Sequence record: PZ347775.1
From: a phage
Reading direction: 5' to 3' (one strand)
DNA: 64,000 bases
Below the pieces are notes generated by a model. It saw only the letters and a list, made by a program, of their open reading frames with translations, had not been told where the DNA came from and ran no database searches. Shown in pieces: positions 1,596 through 64,000 of this stretch. The first letter of the stretch is position 1, and each line of letters begins with the position of its first letter. Position numbers and translations under genes: made by a program.

Positions 1596-1861
1596 TAATA
1601 TTTTTCCTCTGGTTGAAACACAGCACGACAAGCCCACATACTAGCTTCTTTGAGTTTCGTTTTAGCAATAGTTAACTGATCGATGCTTTCAGCATAATTC
1701 TTCGCGAATTCATAGTCTTCACAATTATTTAGCACTTCCCAGAATTCGTCGTATAAAGCATCAAAGATAAGTCCTAAACGAACTTCAGCGTCTTTGATTG
1801 CATTCACTTTACCGATTTTCTCTTCAGTATGGGGCTTATAACCTTTAATGTCTTCAATCAT
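1595..1861 (-). CDS. small helical protein at vs.4 position; candidate Acb2-like cyclic-oligonucleotide sponge
   Basis: 88 aa ORF, third gene downstream of GrcA-like vs.6 equivalent; assignment by gene order only. Confidence 0.5.
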
Positions 1862-2075
1862 ATTCTACTTCCTCACCAGTACATAAATCATATTCAACTA
1901 AACGAATAGGTTCATGAATGCCATATCCTTGAACAGAAATTTCTGTCGTAGGATAAATTCCACTAATATCACCCATATTCCACGCTTCATTAAATTGCTG
2001 TTCGCCTGAATTACTAAACCACTCGGCGAAAGCATTTAGCACATCTTTAGAACCTTCAATAATTATCTTTGCCAT
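1854..2075 (-). CDS. hypothetical protein (vs.5 position)
   Basis: 73 aa ORF tightly packed between neighbours. Confidence 0.5.
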   Translation of the reverse strand: MAKIIIEGSKDVLNAFAEWFSNSGEQQFNEAWNMGDISGIYPTTEISVQGYGIHEPIRLVEYDLCTGEEVEYD

Positions 2076-2449
2076 TACAGACTCTCGGTAAAGGTACGAG
2101 CAATAACGTCGCGCTGCTGTTCCGGAGTCAGAGAGTTAAAGCGAACTGCATATCCGGATACACGGATGGTCAGCTGCGGATATTTTTCCGGATGCTTAAC
2201 TGCATCTTCCAGAGTTTCGCGACGCAGAACGTTAACGTTCAGGTGTTGACCACCTTCAATTTTAACTGTAGGTTGTGGTTCAATTTCAATTTCACGGGCA
2301 TGCAAACCGTAGAAAATTTCCGGGTCTACAAAAGAGTCCTCTTTAAAAGTTTTAGAGACAATAATTCTTGCTTGAATACCGTCTTCAAAATAAATAGTAC
2401 CTTTATGCGTGCCTTCAAGAATTTGATATGCTTTCATATAACCTCTCAA
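2075..2449 (-). CDS. autonomous glycyl-radical cofactor (GrcA/YfiD-like; T4 vs.6 equivalent)
   Basis: 124 aa; C-terminal glycyl-radical motif [25 protein letters not shown] as in GrcA and pyruvate formate-lyase C-terminus. Confidence 0.85.
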
Positions 2450-2775
2450 TTAGAAAATAAATTTATCCAAGATTGCTCTTTAATTAAAAATGGCTCAGAA
2501 TCATATGCCATTAAACTTTGGGTGATTAGTCCTTTAAAAGGCCCATCAATAAATTCCATGGTAAAATATGGAATTTTATTCATTAATCTTGCATTAGGAG
2601 CAGTGCACAAAACTCTGCATCCTTTGAATACGCCTTTTTGTAATTTGTATTGCTTAGGGTAAAATTCGCTCAAGACGTTGTTATTTGCCAAAATTTCAAA
2701 ATGATTCACCAATTTATTTTTAATAGTTTTTGGCGAAAAATAAAGATATTCGAAAAGTTGCGTGTCTGTCATCAT
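2446..2775 (-). CDS. hypothetical protein (vs.7 position)
   Basis: start set at ATG 2775-2773 giving ATGA overlap with upstream stop 2774-2772. Confidence 0.55.
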
Positions 2776-3359
2776 TGCATTCCGATTACGAAAAACTGTG
2801 GACGAGTAATACCACCAATGCAACATTTACTATTGCAGCAGTAATGTACAGTGTCAATATGGACACTATAAATTTTATCCATATCGGGAGCTTTAACAGG
2901 CTCATCGATTATATACAAAATCCGCGAAAGCGATAAACCTCTGAACTTGCTTCCTTTATTACCGATAAAACTACGGACAGAATCGGTAAATAAGCGGAAT
3001 CGAATATCATCGCCAGAATAACGAGAAAATTCTTTTTTAATGTGGCCTGCAGAAATTTTAGCGTAAGCTGAAGTATTAGAAAGAACAATAACTGTTCCAC
3101 CATCATACAGCCAATTAGCAGCAAAGTTAGTCACAGCAGTTGATTTACCGGATTGTCTGCCACCATCTAATCGAAGTGTGCAATACTGCTTGAGTAAGTC
3201 TTCAAATGGTGGGATATAATCGTTTTTACAAATTTCTTCTACTCTAGCATCAGAATGGTGTGTAAAAGCATTCATCAGGGATAGATAAGGACCAGTTAAA
3301 AATGTTCTCATTTTATTCTCTCTAAATTTGGGCCATTCCATGGCGCATGAATTGTCCAT
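2772..3359 (-). CDS. P-loop NTPase of unknown function, sitting where T4 has vs.8/denV
   Basis: Walker A GGRQSGKST, Walker B-like LYIIDEP, Cys-rich tail HYCCNSKCC; start ambiguous (ATG at 3359, 3341 or 3311); no resemblance to endonuclease V. Confidence 0.6.
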   Translation of the reverse strand: MDNSCAMEWPKFRENKMRTFLTGPYLSLMNAFTHHSDARVEEICKNDYIPPFEDLLKQYCTLRLDGGRQSGKSTAVTNFAANWLYDGGTVIVLSNTSAYAKISAGHIKKEFSRYSGDDIRFRLFTDSVRSFIGNKGSKFRGLSLSRILYIIDEPVKAPDMDKIYSVHIDTVHYCCNSKCCIGGITRPQFFVIGMQ

Positions 3360-10130: not shown

Positions 10131-10206
10131 TGGTCGAGGCAGTAGGGATCGAACCTACGACCTAGGACTTAGAAGGTCCTTGCTCTTCCTTCTGAGCTAT
10201 GCCCCG
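10131..10206 (-). tRNA. tRNA-Arg (anticodon UCU)
   Basis: hand-folded cloverleaf; anticodon loop CUUCUAA, T-loop UUCGAUC, 7-bp acceptor stem, CCA encoded. Confidence 0.85.
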
Positions 10207-10210
10207 TAAT

Positions 10211-10286
10211 TGGGGTGACCGATGGGAGTCGAACCCATGACTACGAGAATCACAATCTCGAGTTCTACCAACTGAACTACGGCCAC
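10211..10286 (-). tRNA. tRNA-His (anticodon GUG)
   Basis: anticodon loop UUGUGAU, discriminator C73 typical of tRNA-His, T-loop UUCGACU, CCA encoded. Confidence 0.75.
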
Positions 10287-10400
10287 ATTAATACCTACTC
10301 CAACAATCAAGATGTCTTCACACGAAATTAAGAGAAGAGTGATCAGTTCAACCCCGATAATCGCGTCAAGTAGATATTAATGTGACAGTTGTCACAAATT

Positions 10401-10475
10401 TGGCGGACGTGATAGGATTCGAACCTATAACCAATCGCTTAACAGGCGATCGCTCTGCCATTGAGCTACACATCC
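10401..10475 (-). tRNA. tRNA-Asn (anticodon GUU)
   Basis: anticodon loop CUGUUAA, D-stem GCUC/GAGC, T-loop UUCGAAU, discriminator G, CCA encoded. Confidence 0.8.
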
Positions 10476-10479
10476 AAAT

Positions 10480-10566
10480 TGGTGGGGAGTGATGGAGTCG
10501 AACCACCCGAGTCGCAATGACAATGGATTTACAGTCCACACCGCTACCTCTACGGGATAACTCCCC
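10480..10566 (-). tRNA. tRNA-Tyr (anticodon GUA)
   Basis: 87 nt with long variable arm; anticodon loop CUGUAAA; discriminator A; perfect 7-bp acceptor stem. Confidence 0.75.
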
Positions 10567-10579
10567 TTAATTCTTAATT

Positions 10580-10654
10580 TGGTGGCCCTGGGTGGAATTG
10601 AACCACCATCTGGCGATTATGAGTCGCTTGCTTGAACCTTCCAGCTACAGGGCC
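10580..10654 (-). tRNA. tRNA with anticodon CAU (Ile2-type as in T4, or Met)
   Basis: anticodon loop CUCAUAA; T-loop UUCAAUU; perfect acceptor stem; D-stem only 3 bp. Confidence 0.7.
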
Positions 10655-10655
10655 T

Positions 10656-10731
10656 TGGTGCTGATTGACGGAATCGAACCGCCGACCTTCTCATTACAAG
10701 TGAGTTGCTCTACCTACTGAGCTAAATCAGC
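10656..10731 (-). tRNA. tRNA-Thr (anticodon UGU)
   Basis: anticodon loop CUUGUAA; D-stem GCUC/GAGC; T-loop UUCGAUU; CCA encoded. Confidence 0.85.
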
Positions 10732-10736
10732 AAAAC

Positions 10737-10826
10737 TGGCGGAGGCGATAGGATTTGAACCTATGAGTCGCCGGAGCGACTGCCGGTTTTCAAGACCGGT
10801 GCATTAAACCACTCTGCCACGCCTCC
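10737..10826 (-). tRNA. tRNA-Ser (anticodon UGA)
   Basis: 90 nt, long variable arm GUCGC/GCGAC; anticodon loop CUUGAAA; CCA encoded. Confidence 0.85.
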
Positions 10827-10828
10827 AG

Positions 10829-10902
10829 TCTCCATACAAGGATTTGAACCTTGGACCTCCTGATCCCAAATCAGGCGCTCTACCAAACTGAGCTACACGG
10901 AG
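10829..10902 (-). tRNA. tRNA-Pro (anticodon UGG)
   Basis: anticodon loop UUUGGGA; T-loop UUCAAAU; CCA not encoded, abuts tRNA-Ser (T4-style Pro-Ser dimer). Confidence 0.8.
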
Positions 10903-10912
10903 TAAATTAAAT

Positions 10913-10986
<74 letters not shown>

Positions 10987-10991
10987 AAATT

Positions 10992-11078
10992 TGGTGCGAG
11001 AAGTGGGACTCGAACCCACAAGGAAATCATTCCGCAGCATTTTAAGTGCTGTGCCTTTACCAATTTGACCATTCTCGC
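10992..11078 (-). tRNA. tRNA-Leu (anticodon UAA)
   Basis: 87 nt with long variable arm; anticodon loop CUUAAAA; T-loop UUCGAGU. Confidence 0.85.
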
Positions 11079-11079
11079 G

Positions 11080-11152
11080 CTGGGAATAAAGGACTCGAAC
11101 CTTTGCATCCTGGAATCAAAATCCAGTGCCTTACCAACTTGGCTAATTCCCA
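11080..11152 (-). tRNA. tRNA-Gln (anticodon UUG)
   Basis: anticodon loop UUUUGAU; perfect acceptor stem UGGGAAU/AUUCCCA; discriminator G; CCA not encoded. Confidence 0.8.
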
Positions 11153-55488: not shown

Positions 55489-55966
55489 AGAAGTTTCTAT
55501 TCCTAAAATGGGTCTTAAACACTATAACATTTTAAAAGATGTTAAAGGTCCTGATGAAAATTTAAAACTTTTGATCGATTCTATTTGTCCAAATTTATCA
55601 CCGGCAGAAGTTGATTTCGTTTCTATTCATTTATTGGAATTTAATGGAAAGATTAAATCTCGTAAAGAAATAGATGGTTATACTTATGACATTAATGATG
55701 TTTATGTATGCCAAAGATTGGAATTTCAATACCAAGGAAATACATTTTATTTTAGACCGCCTGGAAAATTTGAACAATTTTTAACTGTGAGCGATATGTT
55801 ATCCAAATGCTTGCTTAAGGTCAATGATGAAGTTAAAGAAATTAATTTTCTTGAGATGCCAGCATTCGTTTTAAAATGGGCAAATGATATTTTTACAACT
55901 TTAGCAATTCCTGGCCCTAATGGTCCAATAACCGGAATTGGCAATATTATTGGATTATTTGAATGA
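55433..55966 (+). CDS. 28: baseplate hub distal protein gp28
   Basis: 177 aa; start overlaps gene 27 by 56 nt. Confidence 0.85.
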
Positions 55967-57735
55967 AAAAGCCACAAGAAATGCAAACGATGCGTAGAAA
56001 AGTTATTTCAGATAATAAACCAACACAGGAAGCGGCTAAATCCGCTTCTAACACTTTATCTGGACTTAACGATATATCTACGAAATTGGATGATGCTCAA
56101 GCTGCTTCTGAATTAATTGCTCAAACTGTCGAAGAAAAATCGAATGAAATAATTGGAGCAATTGACAACGTAGAAAGCGCAGTGAGTGATACTACTGCCG
56201 GTTCTGAGTTAATTGCTGAAACTGTCGAAATTGGCAATAATATTAATAAAGAAATCGGTGAATCACTCGGGAGCAAATTAGATAAATTAACAAGTTTACT
56301 AGAACAAAAAATTCAGACAGCTGGAATTCAACAGACGGGAACTAGTTTAGCTACGGTTGAAAGCGCTATTCCTGTTAAAGTTGTTGAGGATGATACAGCT
56401 GAATCTGTGGGTCCTTTATTACCGGCTCCTGAAGCAGTTAATAATGATCCTGATGCTGATTTTTTCCCTACCCCTCAGCCAGTTGAACCTAAACAAGAAT
56501 CGCCAGAAGAAAAACAGAAAAAAGACGCATTTAACTTAAAATTATCTCAAGCTTTAGATAAATTAACGAAGACTGTTGATTTTGGATTTAAGAAATCTAT
56601 TTCAATTACTGATAAAATATCAAGCATGCTATTTAAGTATACCGTCAGTGCTGCTATTGAAGCTGCTAAAATGACTGCAATGATATTGGCTGTTGTTGTT
56701 GGAATAGATCTGCTGATGGTTCACTTTAAATATTGGTCAGATAAATTTTCGCAGGCTTGGGATTTGTTTAGTTCAAACTTTACTAAATTCTCTAGCGAAA
56801 CCGGAACATGGGGTCCTTTATTACAGAGCATCTTTAGTTCTATTGATGAAATTAAAAAATTCTGGGAAGAGGGAGATTGGGGCGGTTTGACGGTAGCTAT
56901 TGTAGAAGGGCTTGGAAAGGTTCTTTATAATTTAGGTGAACTTATTCAATTAGGTATGGCTAAATTATCTGCGGCAATTCTTCGAGTCATTCCTGGTATG
57001 AAGGATACTGCTGATGAAGTAGAAGGAAGAGCACTAGAAAATTTCCAAAATTCTACTGGAGCATCTCTCAATAAAGAAGACCAGGAAAAAGTTGCAAATT
57101 ATCAAGATAAACGAATGAACGGAGACCTTGGTCCGATAGCAAAAGGATTAGATAAAATTGCTAATTGGAAAACTCGTGCATCTAACTGGATTCGTGGCGT
57201 TGATAATAAAGAAGCACTAACTACCGACGAAGAACGCGCAGCAGAAGAAGAAAAATTAAAGCAACTTTCACCAGAAGAAAGAAAAAATGCTTTAATGAAG
57301 GCTAATGAAGCTCGGGCCGCGATGATTCGTTTTGAAAAATATGCTGATTCAGCTGATATGAGTAAAGACTCAACGGTTAAATCAGTTGAAGCTGCCTATG
57401 AAGACCTTAAAAAACGGATGGATGACCCGGATTTAAATAATTCACCGGCAGTTAAAAAAGAACTTGCTGCTAGATTTTCTAAAATTGATGCTACTTATCA
57501 AGAGCTCAAGAAAAATCAGCCTAATGCCAAACCTGAAACTTCTGCTAAATCGCCAGAAGCAAAACAAGTCCAGGTAATAGAAAAGAACAAAGCACAGCAA
57601 GCTCCTGTTCAACAAGCATCTCCTTCGATCAATAATACTAATAACGTTGTTAAGAAAAATACTGTCGTTCATAATATGACACCCGTAACGAGCACGACTG
57701 CTCCTGGTGTATTTGATGCGACTGGAGTTAATTAA
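55963..57735 (+). CDS. 29: baseplate hub / tail length determinator gp29
   Basis: 590 aa as in T4. Confidence 0.93.
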   Translation: MKKPQEMQTMRRKVISDNKPTQEAAKSASNTLSGLNDISTKLDDAQAASELIAQTVEEKSNEIIGAIDNVESAVSDTTAGSELIAETVEIGNNINKEIGESLGSKLDKLTSLLEQKIQTAGIQQTGTSLATVESAIPVKVVEDDTAESVGPLLPAPEAVNNDPDADFFPTPQPVEPKQESPEEKQKKDAFNLKLSQALDKLTKTVDFGFKKSISITDKISSMLFKYTVSAAIEAAKMTAMILAVVVGIDLLMVHFKYWSDKFSQAWDLFSSNFTKFSSETGTWGPLLQSIFSSIDEIKKFWEEGDWGGLTVAIVEGLGKVLYNLGELIQLGMAKLSAAILRVIPGMKDTADEVEGRALENFQNSTGASLNKEDQEKVANYQDKRMNGDLGPIAKGLDKIANWKTRASNWIRGVDNKEALTTDEERAAEEEKLKQLSPEERKNALMKANEARAAMIRFEKYADSADMSKDSTVKSVEAAYEDLKKRMDDPDLNNSPAVKKELAARFSKIDATYQELKKNQPNAKPETSAKSPEAKQVQVIEKNKAQQAPVQQASPSINNTNNVVKKNTVVHNMTPVTSTTAPGVFDATGVN

Positions 57736-57743
57736 GGAATAAT

Positions 57744-58838
57744 ATGGCAATTGTTAAAGAAATAACTGCTGATTTAATTAAAAAGTCCGGTGAGAAAATT
57801 TCAGCCGGACAGAGTACTAAATCAGAAGTAGCAACTAAAACATACACTGCCCAGTTTCCAACTGGGCGTGCTAGTGGTAATGACACTACAGGGGACTTCC
57901 AGGTAACAGATCTATATAAGAATGGATTATTATTTACTGCATACAATATGTCATCTAGGGATTCTGGAAGTCTTAGATCGATGAGATCTAACTACTCTTC
58001 TTCATCTTCGAGTATTTTAAGTACAGCTAGAAACACTATTAGTAGTACAGTATCAAAACTATCAAATGGATTAATATCAAACAATAATTCAGGAACAATA
58101 AGTAAAGCTCCTGTGGCAAATATTCTTTTACCGAGATCTAAATCTGATGTTGATACATCATCACATAGATTTAATGATGTTCAAGAAAGTCTTATCAGCA
58201 GAGGCGGAGGTACTGCTACTGGTGTGTTAAGTAATATTGCTTCAACTGCAGTATTTGGGGCACTGGAAAGTATAACACAAGGTATAATGGCTGATAATAA
58301 TGAACAGATTTATACGACAGCCAGAAGTATGTATGGTGGTGCTGAGAATAGAACTAAAGTGTTTACATGGGATTTGACTCCACGTTCAACAGAAGATTTG
58401 ATGGCTATTATTAATATCTATCAATATTTTAACTATTTTTCTTATGGTGAAACGGGCAAATCTCAATATGCTGCTGAAATAAAGGGGTATTTAGATGATT
58501 GGTATCGTTCTACATTAATTGAACCTTTATCTCCGGAAGACGCAGCTAAAAATAAAACACTATTTGAGAAAATGACATCGAGTTTAACTAACGTTCTAGT
58601 AGTTTCAAACCCGACAATTTGGATGGTGAAAAACTTTGGTGCAACATCTAAGTTTGATGGAAAAACGGAAATATTTGGCCCATGCCAAATACAGAGCATC
58701 AGATTTGATAAAACACCTAATGGTAACTTTAACGGATTAGCTATTGCTCCAAACCTCCCTAGTACATTTACTCTTGAGATTACTATGAGAGAAATTATCA
58801 CGTTAAACCGTGCTTCTTTATATGCGGGGACTTTTTAA
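57744..58838 (+). CDS. 48: baseplate-tail tube junction protein gp48
   Basis: 364 aa as in T4. Confidence 0.93.
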   Translation: MAIVKEITADLIKKSGEKISAGQSTKSEVATKTYTAQFPTGRASGNDTTGDFQVTDLYKNGLLFTAYNMSSRDSGSLRSMRSNYSSSSSSILSTARNTISSTVSKLSNGLISNNNSGTISKAPVANILLPRSKSDVDTSSHRFNDVQESLISRGGGTATGVLSNIASTAVFGALESITQGIMADNNEQIYTTARSMYGGAENRTKVFTWDLTPRSTEDLMAIINIYQYFNYFSYGETGKSQYAAEIKGYLDDWYRSTLIEPLSPEDAAKNKTLFEKMTSSLTNVLVVSNPTIWMVKNFGATSKFDGKTEIFGPCQIQSIRFDKTPNGNFNGLAIAPNLPSTFTLEITMREIITLNRASLYAGTF

Positions 58839-59803
58839 TGTATTCTTTAGAGGAATTTAATAATCAAGCAATAAACGCAGATTTCCAACGTAATAATATG
58901 TTTAGCTGCGTTTTTGCGACAACTCCATCAACTAAAAGCTCTTCGTTGATAAGTTCAATTAGCAACTTTTCTTATAATAACTTGGGTCTAAATTCAGATT
59001 GGTTAGGATTGACTCAAGGCGATATTAATCAGGGAATTACCACGCTAATTACTGCTGGCACACAAAAACTGATAAGAAAATCAGGGGTTAGTAAATATCT
59101 TATTGGTGCCATGAGTCAACGTACAGTTCAAAGTTTATTGGGCTCATTTACAGTTGGTACATATTTAATTGACTTCTTTAACATGGCATATAACTCATCT
59201 GGATTGATGATATATTCCGTAAAAATGCCAGAGAATAGATTATCCTATGAAACTGACTGGAACTATAATTCTCCTAATATTCGTATAACTGGGAGAGAAT
59301 TAGACCCTTTGGTTATTTCATTTAGGATGGATTCAGAAGCTTGTAACTATCGTGCAATGCAAGACTGGGTTAATGCTGTTCAAGACCCAGTAACTGGACT
59401 GCGTGCTTTGCCGCAAGATGTCGAGGCAGATATTCAGGTTAATCTTCATGCTCGTAATGGATTACCTCATACTGCGGTGATGTTCACCGGATGCATTCCA
59501 GTGTCAGTGAGTGCTCCTGAGTTATCATATGATGGAGATAACCAAATAACTACATTTGATGTTACTTTTGCGTATAGAGTCATGCAGGCTGGGTCAGTTG
59601 ATAGACAAGCTGCGCTTGAATGGCTTGAATCTGCTGCTATAAATGGCATTCAAAGCGTTCTCGGAAATAGTGGAGGTGTTACTGGATTATCTAATTCGCT
59701 TTCACGACTTAGTAGATTAGGAGGAACTGCGGGAAGCATTTCAAACATTAATACTATGACGGGAATTGTCAACTCGCAAAGTAAAATATTAGGAGCAATA
59801 TAA
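58838..59803 (+). CDS. 54: baseplate-tail tube initiator gp54
   Basis: 321 aa; order 29-48-54 as in T4. Confidence 0.93.
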   Translation: MYSLEEFNNQAINADFQRNNMFSCVFATTPSTKSSSLISSISNFSYNNLGLNSDWLGLTQGDINQGITTLITAGTQKLIRKSGVSKYLIGAMSQRTVQSLLGSFTVGTYLIDFFNMAYNSSGLMIYSVKMPENRLSYETDWNYNSPNIRITGRELDPLVISFRMDSEACNYRAMQDWVNAVQDPVTGLRALPQDVEADIQVNLHARNGLPHTAVMFTGCIPVSVSAPELSYDGDNQITTFDVTFAYRVMQAGSVDRQAALEWLESAAINGIQSVLGNSGGVTGLSNSLSRLSRLGGTAGSISNINTMTGIVNSQSKILGAI

Positions 59804-59807
59804 CAAT

Positions 59808-59837
59808 GGGGACCGAAAGGTCCCCATATTTTTATTT
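59808..59837. terminator. terminator hairpin between convergent gene 54 and alt-region genes
   Basis: GGGGACC-GAAA-GGTCCCC hairpin followed by ATATTTTTATTT. Confidence 0.6.
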
Positions 59838-60122
59838 ACGGAATGAAATAAAAGCAGCAACTGAAGCAACTAAACTGTCTTCAATATAAACTTCAATTTT
59901 TACTGGAGCTTCTGACTCAAATTTACCTGTTACTACACCTTGGAAAATACTTTCAGTCTGTTCTGGCTTTGAAAAATTTTCAGAAGGAAAAATTCCGAAC
60001 TTTTTATCTGTTCCAAAAATTTTGATAAATTCATCATAAACTGCTTCATTAAAAGCATTATCAGCAGGAATAACGCCTTCAACTACAAGTTCTTGACCTA
60101 AAAAGCGCAAAGAAGATTTCAT
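59832..60122 (-). CDS. hypothetical protein downstream of alt
   Basis: 96 aa ORF between alt and gene 54. Confidence 0.55.
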   Translation of the reverse strand: MKSSLRFLGQELVVEGVIPADNAFNEAVYDEFIKIFGTDKKFGIFPSENFSKPEQTESIFQGVVTGKFESEAPVKIEVYIEDSLVASVAAFISFRK

Positions 60123-60182
60123 TTTATGTTCCTCATGTTATGTCAGTAAAACTACTATAACACAACACGAGGGACTTGTAAA

Positions 60183-62240
60183 CTACATCTTGAACTTTTT
60201 AGACATTCCGTTGATGTTAACCAAAGAAGCCAAGATTTGAGAAACTTCGTTTTCCTCTTCTTTTGATTCTTCTACAAGGAATTGATTAAACCCAGCCATT
60301 GGACGAACTTCACCAGTTTCCATCAGATGATCGCCATCATATACCGATTCTTCTAATTGTTCAGAAGGAGGAACGATTGTGCCTTCGATTAGATACTTGT
60401 TATAAGCAGTTTCTTTCATCATGTACGTGCTTACTTTATTAATCTTCAACAAAATTCCACGCGGTAAAATAACTTCAGCTTCTGATGGAAATCCTGATAA
60501 ATGACCTGGAACGATAACTTTAATTCGCTCAGCTCCTTTTATTACCATACCTACGCTAGTTTCAGCATCTTCATTAGCATATGCAGAATGACTACCCATA
60601 TGCATTAAATCTTCAGCATCAACAGAACCTTCTCCTTCACCAGAAAATACTGCACTGGAATCATCTAGAGCCATATAGTTTTTACCATGCTCACCGAAGA
60701 TATTTGGTTTAAGCGATGTTGATACGAAGTTCTTGAAATAGAACATTTTATTTTCAATATTATGGCGTAAAGTTTTAAAGGTAACTTCTTGTCCACGATA
60801 AAGCGTAGTTCCTGGAGGAAGAACTGAACCTTTAGCGAATGCAGAATCCATTGTCTCGATGTGTTTAATAGCTCGTTCCATGTATTCTTCACGGGTAGAA
60901 TCTGGTTTACCCAAGAGGAACGAGTTCATTTCAACATATGAATCTGCACAATAATCTTCAATTACATCAGACTCAGCCTGAGTCAGTCCTTTTGGAGTTA
61001 CTTCGGTGCTTGCGTATTCATATGCCTGAGCAGCAGATTCATTAATCAATTTATAAATGCCATTCATGACAAATTGAATAATAGCTACTTTTTCGTCTGG
61101 CGTGGCTTTAGAACCTTTAACTAAATCATTGATAATTTTCTTAATAACATCAAAGCTATTAGAAATATTAATGTCAGCGAGATCGCTCAAAATTTTATCG
61201 GTTTTATAATCAAAAAATTCTTTATTCTTTAAATATTCTTGAGAACCTTGATGTGTTATATCGCTCTGCAGTCTGATAGACGGATCACGTAAACGTGCAT
61301 GGGCCAATGCAATATGATTTCGGAAGCTTTCTAGTTCATAATCGTTAGATTTAAAACGAGAAGCACTTCTCATACCACCGATAGCTCCTTTGCCGAAGTT
61401 TGAACCAATCTGAATAACACCAGAGTTCATTGGTCCTTCTGCTTTATATACCGGAACTTTAGATTCAAACTCTTGATATTTCTTGGCAGCGAAGCTATCG
61501 CCTTGAAGTGAAGCATCGACAGTAGAGTATTGAGCTTGTGCTGCTAATCGACGACTAATTTTAGTTTTCTGAATAACAGCTTGATCCGTGCGCTTATCAT
61601 TTTCTAAAGCAATAGAAGCGGCAACAGCAACAGCTTTAGGAACAGCATTACCTGTTTTAACGTCTACATAAACATCACCAACCTTTGATTCAACTTTTGT
61701 GAATAACTCAGTTGAAATAGGAGGTACACCTGGAATGTCTTCTAAATTGGCATTTTTACGGTAAACCATAATATATGCATACTTTTTATCATAATCCCAG
61801 ATTTCCTTTAAAAGAACATATCGACCTGCTCCTTTAGTACGTACTAAACGGTCAGCAATAACTTGCATTTGACGAGCTGCGCCATTTGTTTTACTTTTTA
61901 GTACGCGGAATAGGCATGCGTCAATTTTATACTGTTTCATTGTTTGAAGAGCAGTATCAAAAACCGCATTAATAACACCAATTGGATTTCCACCCAAGTT
62001 TTTAAGTTTAACTAATGATAATTTCTCATTAACACCTATCATTACGATATGCATCATTTTATCGCCTGGCTTAACGTTTTTATTTGTATCACCGCCAGAG
62101 GTGTATGTACAAAATCTAAATCCAGGAAGCACACTTTCTTCACCGGCTTGAATAGCAAAAATTTGAGGTATTTTATGCTTAGGATTTAAGTTAACAACCG
62201 GCGCCGAAGCGCCGTCAAATAATTCTGTAATAAGTTCCAT
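60183..62240 (-). CDS. alt: Alt-family mono-ADP-ribosyltransferase (likely alt)
   Basis: 685 aa (T4 Alt 682 aa); R-S-E ART motifs YRGQ, FVSTSL, EAEVILPRG. Confidence 0.8.
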   Translation of the reverse strand: MELITELFDGASAPVVNLNPKHKIPQIFAIQAGEESVLPGFRFCTYTSGGDTNKNVKPGDKMMHIVMIGVNEKLSLVKLKNLGGNPIGVINAVFDTALQTMKQYKIDACLFRVLKSKTNGAARQMQVIADRLVRTKGAGRYVLLKEIWDYDKKYAYIMVYRKNANLEDIPGVPPISTELFTKVESKVGDVYVDVKTGNAVPKAVAVAASIALENDKRTDQAVIQKTKISRRLAAQAQYSTVDASLQGDSFAAKKYQEFESKVPVYKAEGPMNSGVIQIGSNFGKGAIGGMRSASRFKSNDYELESFRNHIALAHARLRDPSIRLQSDITHQGSQEYLKNKEFFDYKTDKILSDLADINISNSFDVIKKIINDLVKGSKATPDEKVAIIQFVMNGIYKLINESAAQAYEYASTEVTPKGLTQAESDVIEDYCADSYVEMNSFLLGKPDSTREEYMERAIKHIETMDSAFAKGSVLPPGTTLYRGQEVTFKTLRHNIENKMFYFKNFVSTSLKPNIFGEHGKNYMALDDSSAVFSGEGEGSVDAEDLMHMGSHSAYANEDAETSVGMVIKGAERIKVIVPGHLSGFPSEAEVILPRGILLKINKVSTYMMKETAYNKYLIEGTIVPPSEQLEESVYDGDHLMETGEVRPMAGFNQFLVEESKEEENEVSQILASLVNINGMSKKFKM

Positions 62241-62243
62241 GAT

Positions 62244-64000
62244 TTATCCTTGAACGAACTTGTAAGGCATGTTTGTAATATCTATGCAAGACGCAATAAT
62301 TCCAAGAGATGATTCTACTTTTTGTTTAACATTTGATGAAACAAATGATGCAAAGTCAACTCTGTCTTCTATTTCAATATCACCTGTCATTGCAACTACT
62401 TCACCAGTTTCCATTAGACGGTCACCGTCATAAATGACTGATTCGGTGAGTTCTTCCGTAGTCATAACTTCAGCTTGAATGAGTTTTGTATTATTAGATG
62501 TTGTTCCGTCGTTATTAGAAGCATCAGTTATTTTATTAACTTTGACCATCAATCCGCGTGGTAGAATAACTTCAGCTTCTGTTGCTATTCCGAGACTTCC
62601 TGGATATACAACATTAACTTTATGAGCTCCATCAATTGCCCATCCTATTTGAACTTTAACGTATTCAGGATTTTCTTTATACGCTCTTATTTCGTTTGGA
62701 TTAATAGTTATTCCTTCTTCATTTTTATCAACTGTTAATTCATTACGAGCTTCTGGTTCTAAAAGACCAATACCAGCATGTGTAATTCCAAAACGTCCAA
62801 AAATGATAGGAGTTAAAGAAGTAGATACAAAATTTCTGAAATAGAACACTTTATTTTTAACTAGTGCTTCGTATATAGGAGCAGTCATACTTTGTGCACG
62901 ATAAACTGTAATGCCTTCCGGTATACGGTCACCATTTTCAAAAGCTGAATCTAAGTTATTTATAGCAGATTCAATTTCTTTTTCACTCATTACATCATAT
63001 CGTTCTGGATTGTAGCGTCCTAAAAGAAGATTATTGATGTCAGTATATCCTGAACCACAATACTCTCTAATGCCGCGCTTTTGTGATGGAGTATATTTAG
63101 AACCATCACGGGCAATAGTAATATCAATCATTGGACCTGCACCAATTCCAGAAAAGCTATAAATCATTCGTTTGAGGAATTTAGTTTTTGCTGCGTTCCA
63201 GGAATTTTTAGTTATTTCTTCCCAGACTTCATCTGGCTGTCCTTTACGGGTTTTATTATGTTTATCAAGCCAAGTATCTTTATATTCTTCAAAGAATTTA
63301 TTAATAGCTGCTGCATACTTCTCTAAACATTTTATTGAAGTAGTTGGTTCATTTTTGATCGCATTAAGAATTACATCTTTAATTTTTTCAGAAACTTCAT
63401 TAACCTCACTTTTTGAAAAGAATTTATAATCATAGTGAAGTTCATCTGCAGTTCCTTCGGCAATAATTTTTGCTGCCTTAGTTTTAGAAGCCAATGAATT
63501 AATTCCAAGTTTCATTTCTTCTGCTTCGGGAATTAAAGGAGCGGTAGCAGGTTTATTGAAATTAGCTGCGGTAGATTCATACTTCTGGAATAATTCACTT
63601 TCAAATCTAGAAGATTCCAATGACTGACTTTGTGCAATTGCTCTACGGGAAATTTTAACTTTAACGATTACAGCTTGGTCAGAACGTTTATCATTTTCTT
63701 GCGCAATAGATGCAGCAATTGCCTCATTTTTAGTTACTTGAGCTCCAGTATCTTTATTGATATAAACATCACCGACCTTCGATTCAACTTTAGTAAAGAG
63801 CTCGGTGCTAATTTCCGGAACTCCTGGAATGTCTTCTAGTGATACATTTTTGCGATGTATAAGAATATATGCATACTTTTTATCGTAATCCCAGAGTTCC
63901 TTAAGAAGGACGTATCTGCCACCCGAACGACTACGGATAAGTCTATCAGCAATAACTTGAATTTGTCGAGCTTGACCAGCAGTTTTAGACTTAAGAATAC
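62244..64000 (-). CDS. second Alt-family ADP-ribosyltransferase paralogue, N-terminus beyond window
   Basis: frame open from 62244 to window end with no stop; ORF-track start at 63620 is an internal TTG; ART motifs YRAQ, FVSTSL, EAEVILPRG; 63630-64000 aligns to alt 61560-61930. Confidence 0.75.
   Translation of the reverse strand, partial: ILKSKTAGQARQIQVIADRLIRSRSGGRYVLLKELWDYDKKYAYILIHRKNVSLEDIPGVPEISTELFTKVESKVGDVYINKDTGAQVTKNEAIAASIAQENDKRSDQAVIVKVKISRRAIAQSQSLESSRFESELFQKYESTAANFNKPATAPLIPEAEEMKLGINSLASKTKAAKIIAEGTADELHYDYKFFSKSEVNEVSEKIKDVILNAIKNEPTTSIKCLEKYAAAINKFFEEYKDTWLDKHNKTRKGQPDEVWEEITKNSWNAAKTKFLKRMIYSFSGIGAGPMIDITIARDGSKYTPSQKRGIREYCGSGYTDINNLLLGRYNPERYDVMSEKEIESAINNLDSAFENGDRIPEGITVYRAQSMTAPIYEALVKNKVFYFRNFVSTSLTPIIFGRFGITHAGIGLLEPEARNELTVDKNEEGITINPNEIRAYKENPEYVKVQIGWAIDGAHKVNVVYPGSLGIATEAEVILPRGLMVKVNKITDASNNDGTTSNNTKLIQAEVMTTEELTESVIYDGDRLMETGEVVAMTGDIEIEDRVDFASFVSSNVKQKVESSLGIIASCIDITNMPYKFVQG

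What the first reader, a model, noticed from the sequence alone, without database searches (positions are those of the whole stretch)
60183..64000. Tandem Alt-family ADP-ribosyltransferase paralogues
Two adjacent minus-strand genes both show ADP-ribosyltransferase signature motifs (YRGQ/YRAQ, FVSTSL, EAEVILPRG) and share a conserved N-terminal region (63630-64000 aligns with 61560-61930), but have diverged central domains. T4 is usually described as having one alt plus modA/modB, so a second full-length alt-like gene with intact catalytic residues suggests duplication and divergence in target specificity. Which copy is orthologous to T4 alt is unresolved.
Basis: partly seen in the sequence, partly recalled or inferred. 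Interest (0 to 1): 0.6.

Follow-up and report, generated by a model that had tools for sequence, protein, structure and literature searches.

The report
Known tandem pair of Alt ADP-ribosyltransferases
The two neighbouring ADP-ribosyltransferase genes are real, but this pair is the normal, already annotated arrangement in most T4-like coliphages (including classical T6), and T4 itself merely carries a deleted wreck of the second copy (alt.-1/alt.-2).

Summary
Window 60183-62240 (-) is an intact 685-aa Alt-like ADP-ribosyltransferase ("copy 1"). Window 62244-64000 (-) holds codons 114-697 of a second one ("copy 2"). Both keep the R / S-T-S / E-x-E catalytic signature.

The orthology question is resolved. 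Copy 2 is the T4 alt orthologue: same position, N-terminal 240 residues 100% identical and C-terminus 94% identical. Copy 1 is the intact form of T4 alt.-1 + alt.-2. T4 differs from copy 1 by a 1-nt loss in an A-run and a 1,699-bp deletion between two 9-bp repeats (CTAAAAAGT).

The pair is not new. Copy 1's central region is at least 95% identical in 402 phage records, including T6 and ime09. Dhakavirus IME08 annotates the pair as alta/altb. The T4 RefSeq note, Nolan 2006 and a 2026 paper all describe the duplication.

Copy 1 is under strong purifying selection (dN/dS 0.035-0.05). It keeps both Alt termini, which are processed by the prohead protease in T4. It is therefore most likely a second head-packaged, injected effector with different targets, but this is untested.

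One modest extra: the N-terminal module tracks the genome, while the effector module is exchanged between phages and genera.

The parts
62244..64000 (-). Copy 2: orthologue of T4 alt, cut by the window end. Codons 114-697 plus the stop are present; the first 113 codons lie beyond 64000.
   Evidence: Translated. It differs at 3 of 584 residues from the 697-aa ime09 protein. It is 70% identical to T4 Alt overall: residues 1-240 100%, ART domain 66%, C-terminal tail 94%. In ime09, T6 and T4 it sits next to alt.1 and gene 30. dN/dS is 0.025-0.037 against ime09 and T6.
60183..62240 (-). Copy 1: intact 685-aa Alt paralogue. It is the full-length form of T4 pseudogene fragments alt.-1 + alt.-2.
   Evidence: ORF. 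It is 41% identical to T4 Alt (E = 5e-157). It matches PHROG 802 'Alt-like RNA polymerase ADP-ribosyltransferase' at 1.8e-255 over residues 1-685. T4 alt.-1/alt.-2 DNA aligns to its first 357 nt at 97% identity. dN/dS is 0.035-0.05. Its central 401 aa are at least 95% identical in 402 phage records.
61527..62240 (-). Copy 1 N-terminal domain (aa 1-238). This is the module shared with Alt and the presumed prohead-core targeting module. It starts MELITE (62223-62240).
   Evidence: 68% identical to the copy 2/T4 Alt N-domain. The AF2 model gives a mixed alpha/beta domain with pLDDT about 70-88. In T4 Alt a short N-terminal propeptide is removed by gp21 (PMC9958956, PMC9026906).
60996..61526 (-). 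Copy 1 helical middle region (aa 239-415), the most diverged part.
   Evidence: 8-18% identical to T4 Alt and copy 2, but 45% identical to Dhakavirus IME08 altb. Predicted all-helical with pLDDT about 80-93.
60381..60995 (-). Copy 1 ADP-ribosyltransferase domain (aa 416-620). Catalytic residues: R482 (60795-60797), S507-T-S509 (60714-60722), E587-A-E589 (60474-60482).
   Evidence: Pfam PF03496 at 2.8e-20. R482, S507, S509, E587 and E589 are invariant in a 17-sequence alignment. Foldseek hits to Vis, C3bot, CDTa, VIP2 and iota Ia have E = 5e-8 to 3e-5 and probability 1.00.
62457..63206 (-). Copy 2 ADP-ribosyltransferase domain (aa 378-627 in full-length numbering), with YRAQ, FVSTSL and EAEVILPRG.
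   Evidence: Pfam PF03496 at 1.8e-37. phmmer aligns the YR and ExE segments to CdtA and iota Ia.
60186..60356 (-). Copy 1 C-terminal tail (aa 629-685), containing the conserved L-x-E sites LEE|S and YDGDHLME|TGE. This is a candidate C-terminal propeptide.
   Evidence: E631, Y634-D637, E641, G643 and E644 are invariant. pLDDT is below 50 from residue 629. T4 Alt undergoes C-terminal processing by gp21 (PMC9026906). The exact cleavage site is my inference.
61893..61901 (-). Upstream copy of the 9-bp direct repeat CTAAAAAGT, one end-point of the 1,699-bp deletion found in T4.
   Evidence: The blastn HSPs of the T4 remnant overlap on this 9-mer.
60194..60202 (-). Downstream copy of the 9-bp direct repeat CTAAAAAGT, the other deletion end-point.
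62077..62081 (-). A5 run (codons 54-55 of copy 1). In T4 it is A4, which causes the frameshift that ends alt.-1.
   Evidence: There is a single 1-nt gap in the T4-versus-window alignment.
62241..62252 (-). Junction between the two genes: ...CAAGGA TAA ATC ATG. Copy 1's ATG lies 3 nt after copy 2's stop, preceded by an AAGGA Shine-Dalgarno-like sequence.
   Evidence: Sequence. Co-transcription and translational coupling are inferred.
59832..60122 (-). alt.-3 (96 aa, DUF5498), the downstream neighbour.
   Evidence: Pfam PF17602 at 1.4e-64. Same position as T4 alt.-3.
60154..60182 (-). Early-promoter-like site (TTTACA-17-TATAGT with TG) between copy 1's stop and alt.-3.
   Evidence: 10/12 consensus match, the best in the region. 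Function was not tested.
59806..59827 (.). Bidirectional terminator-like hairpin between gene 54 (+) and alt.-3 (-).
   Evidence: 9-bp stem with 6 GC pairs, found on both strands.

Best explanation
The locus is the standard two-gene alt cluster of Tequatrovirus phages.

- Copy 2 (62244 to beyond 64000) is the alt orthologue.
- Copy 1 (60183-62240) is an old, functional tandem paralogue. T4 and a minority of relatives have lost it through a frameshift plus a 1.7-kb microhomology-mediated deletion, leaving alt.-1/alt.-2.

Proposed mechanism. The fold, the motifs and the conserved termini are shown here; the rest is inferred by analogy with T4 Alt.

1. Both proteins are made from one leftward transcript, with copy 1's ATG 3 nt after copy 2's stop.
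2. Their shared N-terminal ~240-residue module brings them into the prohead scaffolding core.
3. The prohead protease gp21 trims the conserved MELITE N-terminal peptide and a conserved C-terminal tail.
4. The mature enzymes are injected with the DNA.
5. Each then uses NAD+ to mono-ADP-ribosylate arginines of host proteins through an R-S-ExE active site.
6. Because the helical middle region and ART domain are only 8-36% identical between the copies, they probably recognise different host targets.

The N-terminal module follows the phage genome, whereas the middle+ART effector module is exchanged by recombination between phages and even genera.
For: Identity and orthology:
- Copy 2 versus T4 Alt: residues 1-240 100% identical, C-tail 94%. 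Same neighbours (alt.1, gene 30) in ime09, T6 and T4.
- Copy 1 versus T4 alt.-1/alt.-2: 345/357 nt identical, with one 1-nt gap. The alignment then resumes 1,699 bp later across a shared CTAAAAAGT repeat.
- PHROGs built from alt.-1 and alt.-2 hit copy 1 more strongly (138 and 131 bits) than copy 2 (78 and 70 bits).

Functionality of copy 1:
- Intact in the window, ime09 and T6, with dN/dS 0.035-0.05.
- At least 95% aa identity in 402 records, and a 772-member 90% cluster.
- R482, S507, S509, E587 and E589 are invariant.
- Pfam ART at 2.8e-20. The AF2 model's ART domain matches Vis, C3, CDTa, VIP2 and iota.

Packaging inference:
- Both copies begin MELITELFD, and both keep the invariant L-x-E-S...YDGDxLMETGE tail.
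- T4 Alt is a ~40-copy core protein processed by gp21 at both termini (PMC9958956; PMC9026906).

Age of the duplication:
- Dhakavirus IME08 has alta/altb in the same position. In the middle, ART and C regions copy 1 groups with altb (45/55/64%) and copy 2 with alta (66/96/53%).

Module exchange:
- Window copy 2 versus T4 Alt: N-domain 100% but ART 66%.
- Window copy 2 versus IME08 alta: N-domain 46% but ART 96%.
Against: - There is no direct evidence here, or in the papers I could read, that copy 1 is packaged, cleaved, injected or enzymatically active, or that its targets differ from Alt's.
- No canonical late promoter lies directly upstream of copy 1. The only TATAAATA on this strand is inside copy 2 at 62957-62964. 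Copy 2's own promoter lies outside the window.
- T4 and many natural isolates do without copy 1, so it is dispensable at least on some hosts.
- The higher within-genome N-domain similarity could reflect gene conversion rather than a shared packaging constraint.
Confidence: 0.85

Rival explanations
1. Copy 1 is a decaying or non-functional duplicate on its way to the state seen in T4.
For: T4 and at least 30 listed relatives carry the deleted remnant, so loss is tolerated.
Against: The 685-codon ORF is intact in the window, ime09 and T6. dN/dS is 0.035-0.05. The catalytic residues are invariant across 17 homologues down to 42% identity. An orthologue (altb) is kept in another genus. 402 records are at least 95% identical.
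Confidence: 0.03
2. Copy 1 is an active ADP-ribosyltransferase that is not packaged. It would act only inside the producing cell, like ModA/ModB.
For: No packaging data exist for copy 1. Its N-domain is only 68% identical to Alt's.
Against: It keeps the same first nine residues (MELITELFD) and the invariant C-terminal tail; both Alt termini are gp21-processed propeptides in T4. It is coupled to alt, with 3 nt between the genes. The N-domain is conserved under purifying selection although it is not needed for catalysis. ModA/ModB-type enzymes lack such a domain (from my knowledge of the T4 literature).
Confidence: 0.08
3. The two copies are functionally redundant, modifying the same targets (for example RNA polymerase alpha), and are kept for dosage or robustness.
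For: They share the same R-S-ExE chemistry and the same family (PHROG 802). T4 Alt itself has many targets (PMC5512222).
Against: The middle region is 8-18% identical and the ART domain 35-36% identical between the copies. Within each orthologue group these regions are far better conserved (45-96%) across genera. That is the pattern expected for two distinct, separately maintained specificities.
Confidence: 0.12
4. The second copy is a recent, lineage-specific duplication peculiar to this phage. This is the novelty the first reader implied.
For: None beyond its absence from the T4 textbook gene list.
Against: The pair is present in T6, ime09 and hundreds of other records. The paralogues are only 70% identical at nucleotide level in their best-conserved part. 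Orthologous pairs occur in Dhakavirus. Paralogues were noted in RB49 and 44RR in 2006.
Confidence: 0.01

Closest known systems
Bacteriophage T4 Alt (gpAlt, NP_049811; NAD+--arginine ADP-ribosyltransferase packaged in the head)
   Same: Copy 2 is its positional and sequence orthologue, with the N-terminal 240 aa identical. Copy 1 shares the full architecture (N-domain, helical middle, R-S-ExE ART, C-terminal tail) and 41% identity. Both fall in PHROG 802 and Pfam PF03496.
   Different: Copy 2 carries a different allele of the middle+ART module (32% and 66% identity to T4). Copy 1 is a distinct paralogue whose middle region is essentially unrelated in sequence (8%). Neither protein has been studied biochemically, to my knowledge.
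T4 alt.-1 / alt.-2 (NP_049810, NP_049809)
   Same: These are the same gene as copy 1, at 97% nucleotide identity over the first 357 nt and in the same position between alt and alt.-3.
   Different: In T4 the gene is broken by a 1-nt deletion at codon 54 and a 1,699-bp deletion between CTAAAAAGT repeats. In the window it is intact.
alta/altb of Dhakavirus IME08 and the 'Alt-like (x2)' pairs of T6, RB32, ime09, SHFML-11/6phi13
   Same: Same tandem arrangement between alt.1 and alt.-3. altb ends ...KFKM like copy 1, and alta ends ...KFIQG like copy 2 (...KFVQG). The effector modules pair up alta with copy 2 and altb with copy 1.
   Different: The N-terminal domains group by genome rather than by orthologue: 66-68% within a genome against 42-46% across genera.
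C3-like and binary-toxin R-S-E ADP-ribosyltransferases (Vis, C3bot, CDTa, iota Ia, VIP2)
   Same: The ART fold and the catalytic R / STS / ExE arrangement (Foldseek and phmmer hits).
   Different: Only 15-20% identical. There is no secretion or B-component system; delivery is presumably by phage head injection. The extra N-terminal and helical domains are unique to the Alt family.
T4 ModA / ModB
   Same: R-S-E clade ARTs of the same phage group, described as paralogous to Alt (PMC5512222).
   Different: By the T4 literature as I know it, ModA and ModB are small single-domain early proteins that are not packaged. The window genes are ~690-aa multi-domain proteins with Alt's termini.

Membership tests
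T4 Alt family (PHROG 802, 'Alt-like RNA polymerase ADP-ribosyltransferase') | Full-length sequence similarity to T4 Alt | tested here: met
   Copy 1: 41% identity, E = 5e-157, and PHROG 802 at 1.8e-255 over aa 1-685. Copy 2 (complete in ime09): 70% identity and PHROG 802 at 2.1e-272.
T4 Alt family | R-S-ExE catalytic signature (Arg, Ser-Thr-Ser, Glu-x-Glu) in an ART fold | tested here: met
   Copy 1 has R482, S507-T-S509 and E587-A-E589, invariant in 17 sequences. Copy 2 has YRAQ, STS and EAE. Pfam PF03496 passes in both. Foldseek matches Vis, C3 and CDTa.
T4 Alt family | Genomic position between gene 30/alt.1 and alt.-3/gene 54, leftward strand | tested here: met
   The window shows gp29, gp48, gp54 (+), then alt.-3, copy 1 and copy 2 (-). 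alt.1 and gene 30 follow in ime09, T6 and T4.
T4 Alt family | Terminal propeptides with gp21 (L/I-x-E) cleavage sites | tested here: met
   This is met at sequence level only. MELITE is at the N-terminus of copy 1 (and of copy 2 in ime09/T6), and the L-x-E-S...LME-TGE tail is invariant. Actual cleavage cannot be tested with these tools.
T4 Alt family | Packaged in the prohead core (~40 copies) and injected with the DNA | not testable with these tools
   Known for T4 Alt (PMC9958956, PMC9026906). I found no proteomic data for copy 1.
T4 Alt family | NAD+-dependent ADP-ribosylation of host RNA polymerase alpha and other host proteins | not testable with these tools
   This needs biochemistry. 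The literature covers T4 Alt only.
ModA/ModB-type phage ARTs | Small single-domain ART without the Alt N-terminal domain | tested here: not met
   Both window proteins are ~690 aa, with a 240-aa N-domain and a helical middle region ahead of the ART domain. The size of ModA/ModB is from my knowledge of the T4 literature.
Binary/C3-like bacterial ART exotoxins (Pfam ADPrib_exo_Tox) | ART domain matching PF03496 above the gathering score | tested here: met
   72.9 and 129 bits against a cut-off of 23.4. This is fold-level membership only: there is no toxin delivery apparatus and identity to solved toxins is 15-20%.

The most novel reading that the evidence does not exclude
T-even phages carry a two-slot system of head-injected ADP-ribosyltransferase effectors, built like polymorphic toxins. 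A genome-specific N-terminal packaging module is joined to middle+ART effector modules that are swapped horizontally between phages and genera. Examples are the T4 and T6 alleles of alt, and the window alt ART domain, which is 96% identical to Dhakavirus alta although the N-domains are only 46% identical. Slot 2 (copy 1) would attack a different host target set, possibly a defence system. It has gone unstudied because the model phage T4 deleted it.
Probability: 0.35. Interest if true: 0.45.

Novelty: already known. Interest (0 to 1): 0.12.

Why it matters
As a discovery it matters little. The tandem alt pair is annotated in hundreds of genomes, noted in the T4 RefSeq record and in Nolan 2006, and interpreted as duplication plus divergence in a 2026 paper.

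What this analysis adds is bookkeeping. It shows which copy is the alt orthologue. It gives the exact lesions (a 1-nt frameshift and a 1,699-bp deletion between 9-bp repeats) that turned the second gene into T4 alt.-1/alt.-2. It also shows that the effector module is mosaic while the N-terminal module follows the genome.

The practical point is that T4, the model for all Alt biology, lacks a second, well-conserved enzyme that most of its relatives have and that is probably injected. The host targets of that enzyme are unknown.

Tried and rejected
- phmmer of copy 1 against PDB sequences found nothing at E <= 0.01. Only copy 2 gave weak CdtA/iota hits. The fold relation for copy 1 therefore came from the AF2 model plus Foldseek.
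- I tried to count T4-type deletion alleles with a megablast of the 427-bp T4 remnant. This did not discriminate, because intact copies also cover more than 80% of that query. I can only say that all 30 listed rows match end to end in one piece, and therefore share the junction.
- Literature searches found nothing on virion proteomics or biochemistry of the second Alt. The hits concerned alt.-3 and CmdTAC, not the paralogue.
- I looked for a late promoter directly upstream of copy 1 and found none. The only TATAAATA on this strand lies inside copy 2, about 720 nt upstream. The sigma-70-type scan was no better than shuffled sequence overall: 16 sites found against 15.2 expected.
- The precomputed Pfam label PF26846 on all family members did not appear in the Pfam scan I ran, so I could not identify it. 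I did not use it as evidence.
- Rejected readings: a pseudogene, a recent lineage-specific duplication, and a ModA/ModB-type enzyme (see the rival explanations and the membership table).


Full report
**What is in the sequence**

The end of the window is the T4-type baseplate-to-alt junction.
- Three plus-strand ORFs (55963-57735, 57744-58838, 58838-59803) match T4 genes 29, 48 and 54 in order and length.
- A hairpin at 59806-59827 scores as a terminator on both strands.
- Three minus-strand genes follow:
  - 59832-60122, 96 aa, Pfam DUF5498, equivalent to T4 alt.-3.
  - 60183-62240, 685 aa, called copy 1 here.
  - An open frame from the stop at 62244-62246 to the window edge, called copy 2 here.

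**Check of the observation**

Copy 1 has YRGQ at aa 481-484, FVSTSL at 505-510 and EAEVILPRG at 587-595. Copy 2 has YRAQ at 479-482, FVSTSL at 503-508 and EAEVILPRG at 587-595 (numbering of the complete protein).

The claimed nucleotide similarity of the N-terminal parts is real. Positions 63651-63972 align with 61557-61878 at 70.5% identity over 325 nt, E = 6e-41.

Both proteins pass Pfam ADPrib_exo_Tox well above threshold. The two proteins are 41% identical overall: 68% in residues 1-238, 18% in 239-415, 36% in the ART domain and 42% in the C-terminal tail.

Copy 2 lacks its first 113 codons in the window. The part present differs at only 3 of 584 residues from the complete 697-aa protein of phage ime09.

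**Which copy is alt**

In T4, ime09 and T6 the upstream gene lies next to alt.1 and DNA ligase gene 30. The ime09 equivalent of copy 2 is 100% identical to T4 Alt over residues 1-240 and 94% identical in the last ~60 residues. It is only 32% and 66% identical in the middle region and ART domain. Copy 1 is 41% identical to T4 Alt. Copy 2 is therefore the alt orthologue, carrying a different allele of the effector part.

**What copy 1 is**

T4 has only 421 bp between alt and alt.-3, annotated as alt.-1 and alt.-2. The RefSeq note calls these 'an old duplication of the first part of gene alt'.

Aligning that stretch to the window gave 345/357 identical bases over the start of copy 1, with a single 1-nt gap. 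The gap falls in an A5 run at 62077-62081 (codons 54-55), which is A4 in T4. The alignment then jumps to the last 20 nt of copy 1, and the two segments overlap on the 9-mer CTAAAAAGT. That 9-mer occurs in the window at 61893-61901 and 60194-60202.

T4 alt.-1/alt.-2 are therefore copy 1 after a frameshift and a 1,699-bp deletion between short direct repeats. Consistent with this, the PHROG families built from alt.-1 and alt.-2 hit copy 1 at 138 and 131 bits, but copy 2 at only 78 and 70 bits.

**Is copy 1 functional**

- It is an uninterrupted 685-codon ORF in the window, ime09 and T6.
- Pairwise dN/dS is 0.035-0.05, similar to 0.025-0.037 for copy 2.
- In a 17-sequence alignment reaching 42% identity, R482, S507, S509, E587 and E589 are invariant.
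- An AlphaFold2 model has mean pLDDT 76.5, with most 10-residue blocks of the ART domain at about 75-92 and four dipping to 58-73.
- The model's ART domain matches Vis, C3bot, CDTa, VIP2, iota Ia and related R-S-E enzymes (Foldseek E = 5e-8 to 3e-5, probability 1.00).
- Copy 2 aligns by sequence to CdtA and iota Ia around the YR and ExE segments.

**How common it is**

- The 4.2-kb locus matches 542 phage records. 279 of them cover at least 80% of it in one piece at up to 98.5% identity. Many are annotated 'Alt-like RNA polymerase ADP-ribosyltransferase (x2)' or alt_1/alt_2.
- Copy 1's central 401 residues are at least 95% identical in 402 records.
- Copy 2's central allele is at least 95% identical in 313 records, including T6, RB32, RB5 and wV7.
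- T6 has the same 697 + 685 aa pair.
- Dhakavirus IME08 annotates alta and altb in the same place.
- The T4-type deletion junction is shared by T4 stocks and by many independent isolates, including RB55, RB59, vB_EcoM_112 and Salmonella phage SG1.

In the literature, Nolan et al. 2006 listed alt paralogues in RB49, 44RR and T4 (PMC1524935). A 2026 paper on phage 6phi13 states that two paralogous Alt-like proteins, 43% identical, suggest functional divergence after duplication (PMC13600099).

**How it probably works**

The following is known for T4 Alt:
- About 40 copies sit in the prohead scaffolding core.
- gp21 removes a short N-terminal peptide and, by mass spectrometry, also processes the C-terminus.
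- The protein is ejected into the host and ADP-ribosylates RNA polymerase and other host proteins.
(PMC9958956, PMC9026906, PMC5512222.)

Copy 1 keeps the same first nine residues (MELITELFD, with an I-x-E site). It also keeps an invariant tail, L-x-E-S...YDGDxLMETGE. In the model, ordered structure ends exactly at residue 629, where that tail begins. Its ATG lies 3 nt after copy 2's stop, behind an AAGGA sequence.

I therefore infer that copy 1 is co-expressed with alt, packaged, trimmed and injected in the same way, and that it modifies arginines with NAD+. The nearly unrelated helical middle region and the 36%-identical ART domain point to a different target set. None of the steps specific to copy 1 has been tested.

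**An extra pattern**

Domain-wise comparison of the window copies, T4 Alt and IME08 alta/altb gives incongruent relationships.
- In the middle, ART and tail regions, copy 1 groups with altb (45/55/64%) and copy 2 with alta (66/96/53%). The duplication is therefore older than the split between the two genera.
- In the N-domain, the two paralogues of one genome are closest to each other (66-68%), and cross-genus values are 42-46%.
- Window copy 2 has an N-domain identical to T4 Alt but an ART domain only 66% identical.
- Window copy 2 shares an ART domain 96% identical with IME08 alta. At nucleotide level this is 80.6% over 1,263 nt, with no detectable similarity in the N-domain.

This is a recombination mosaic: a genome-bound delivery module and exchangeable effector modules. 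Gene conversion between the tandem N-domains is an alternative explanation for the within-genome similarity. I did not find this pattern stated in the papers I read, but it fits the general picture of fast-evolving phage ARTs (PMC9503650).

**Verdict**

The finding is the ordinary, annotated state of Tequatrovirus genomes, and T4 is the derived exception.

Noticed in passing
window 62244-63206 versus L004 (Dhakavirus IME08) 1825-3081: The ART domain of the window's alt orthologue is 96% aa identical (80.6% nt over 1,263 nt) to IME08 alta, although the N-terminal domains are only 46% identical. The same N-domain is 100% identical to T4 Alt, whose ART domain is only 66% identical. This is a mosaic, exchangeable effector module.
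   Followed up: partly
window 10131-11152 (-): A cluster of 11 tRNA genes: Arg, His, Asn, Tyr, Met(CAT), Thr, Ser, Pro, Gly, Leu, Gln. T4 is listed with 8 tRNAs (Table 1 of PMC1524935), so this phage carries extra tRNAs such as His, Asn and Tyr.
   Followed up: no
window 59832-60122 (-): alt.-3 homologue (96 aa, DUF5498). In T4, C-terminal extension mutants of Alt.-3 escape the CmdTAC defence system by blocking CmdA degradation (PMC11618068). The wild-type function is unknown.
   Followed up: partly
window 62957-62964 (-): A perfect T4 late-promoter core, TATAAATA, lies inside the copy 2 coding sequence about 720 nt upstream of copy 1's ATG. It is the only such site on this strand in the locus. 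It could be an internal late promoter for copy 1 or a chance match.
   Followed up: no
window 60154-60182 (-) and 59806-59827: An early-promoter-like TTTACA-17-TATAGT (with TG) lies just after copy 1's stop and ahead of alt.-3. In T4 the alt.-2 reading frame runs into this sequence. A strong bidirectional terminator-like hairpin lies between alt.-3 and gene 54.
   Followed up: no
GenBank MG010123.1 (Staphylococcus phage SAJK-IND) 32015-32170, hits H80/H120: The last ~156 nt of this 32-kb Staphylococcus phage record encode 52 residues 100% identical to copy 1 of the T4-like alt pair. This looks like contamination or a chimeric assembly end in that record.
   Followed up: no
proteins P0001-P0120: All family members carry a precomputed Pfam label, PF26846.1, in addition to PF03496. 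The Pfam scan did not report it, so the domain it names (possibly the Alt N-terminal region) could not be identified.
   Followed up: no
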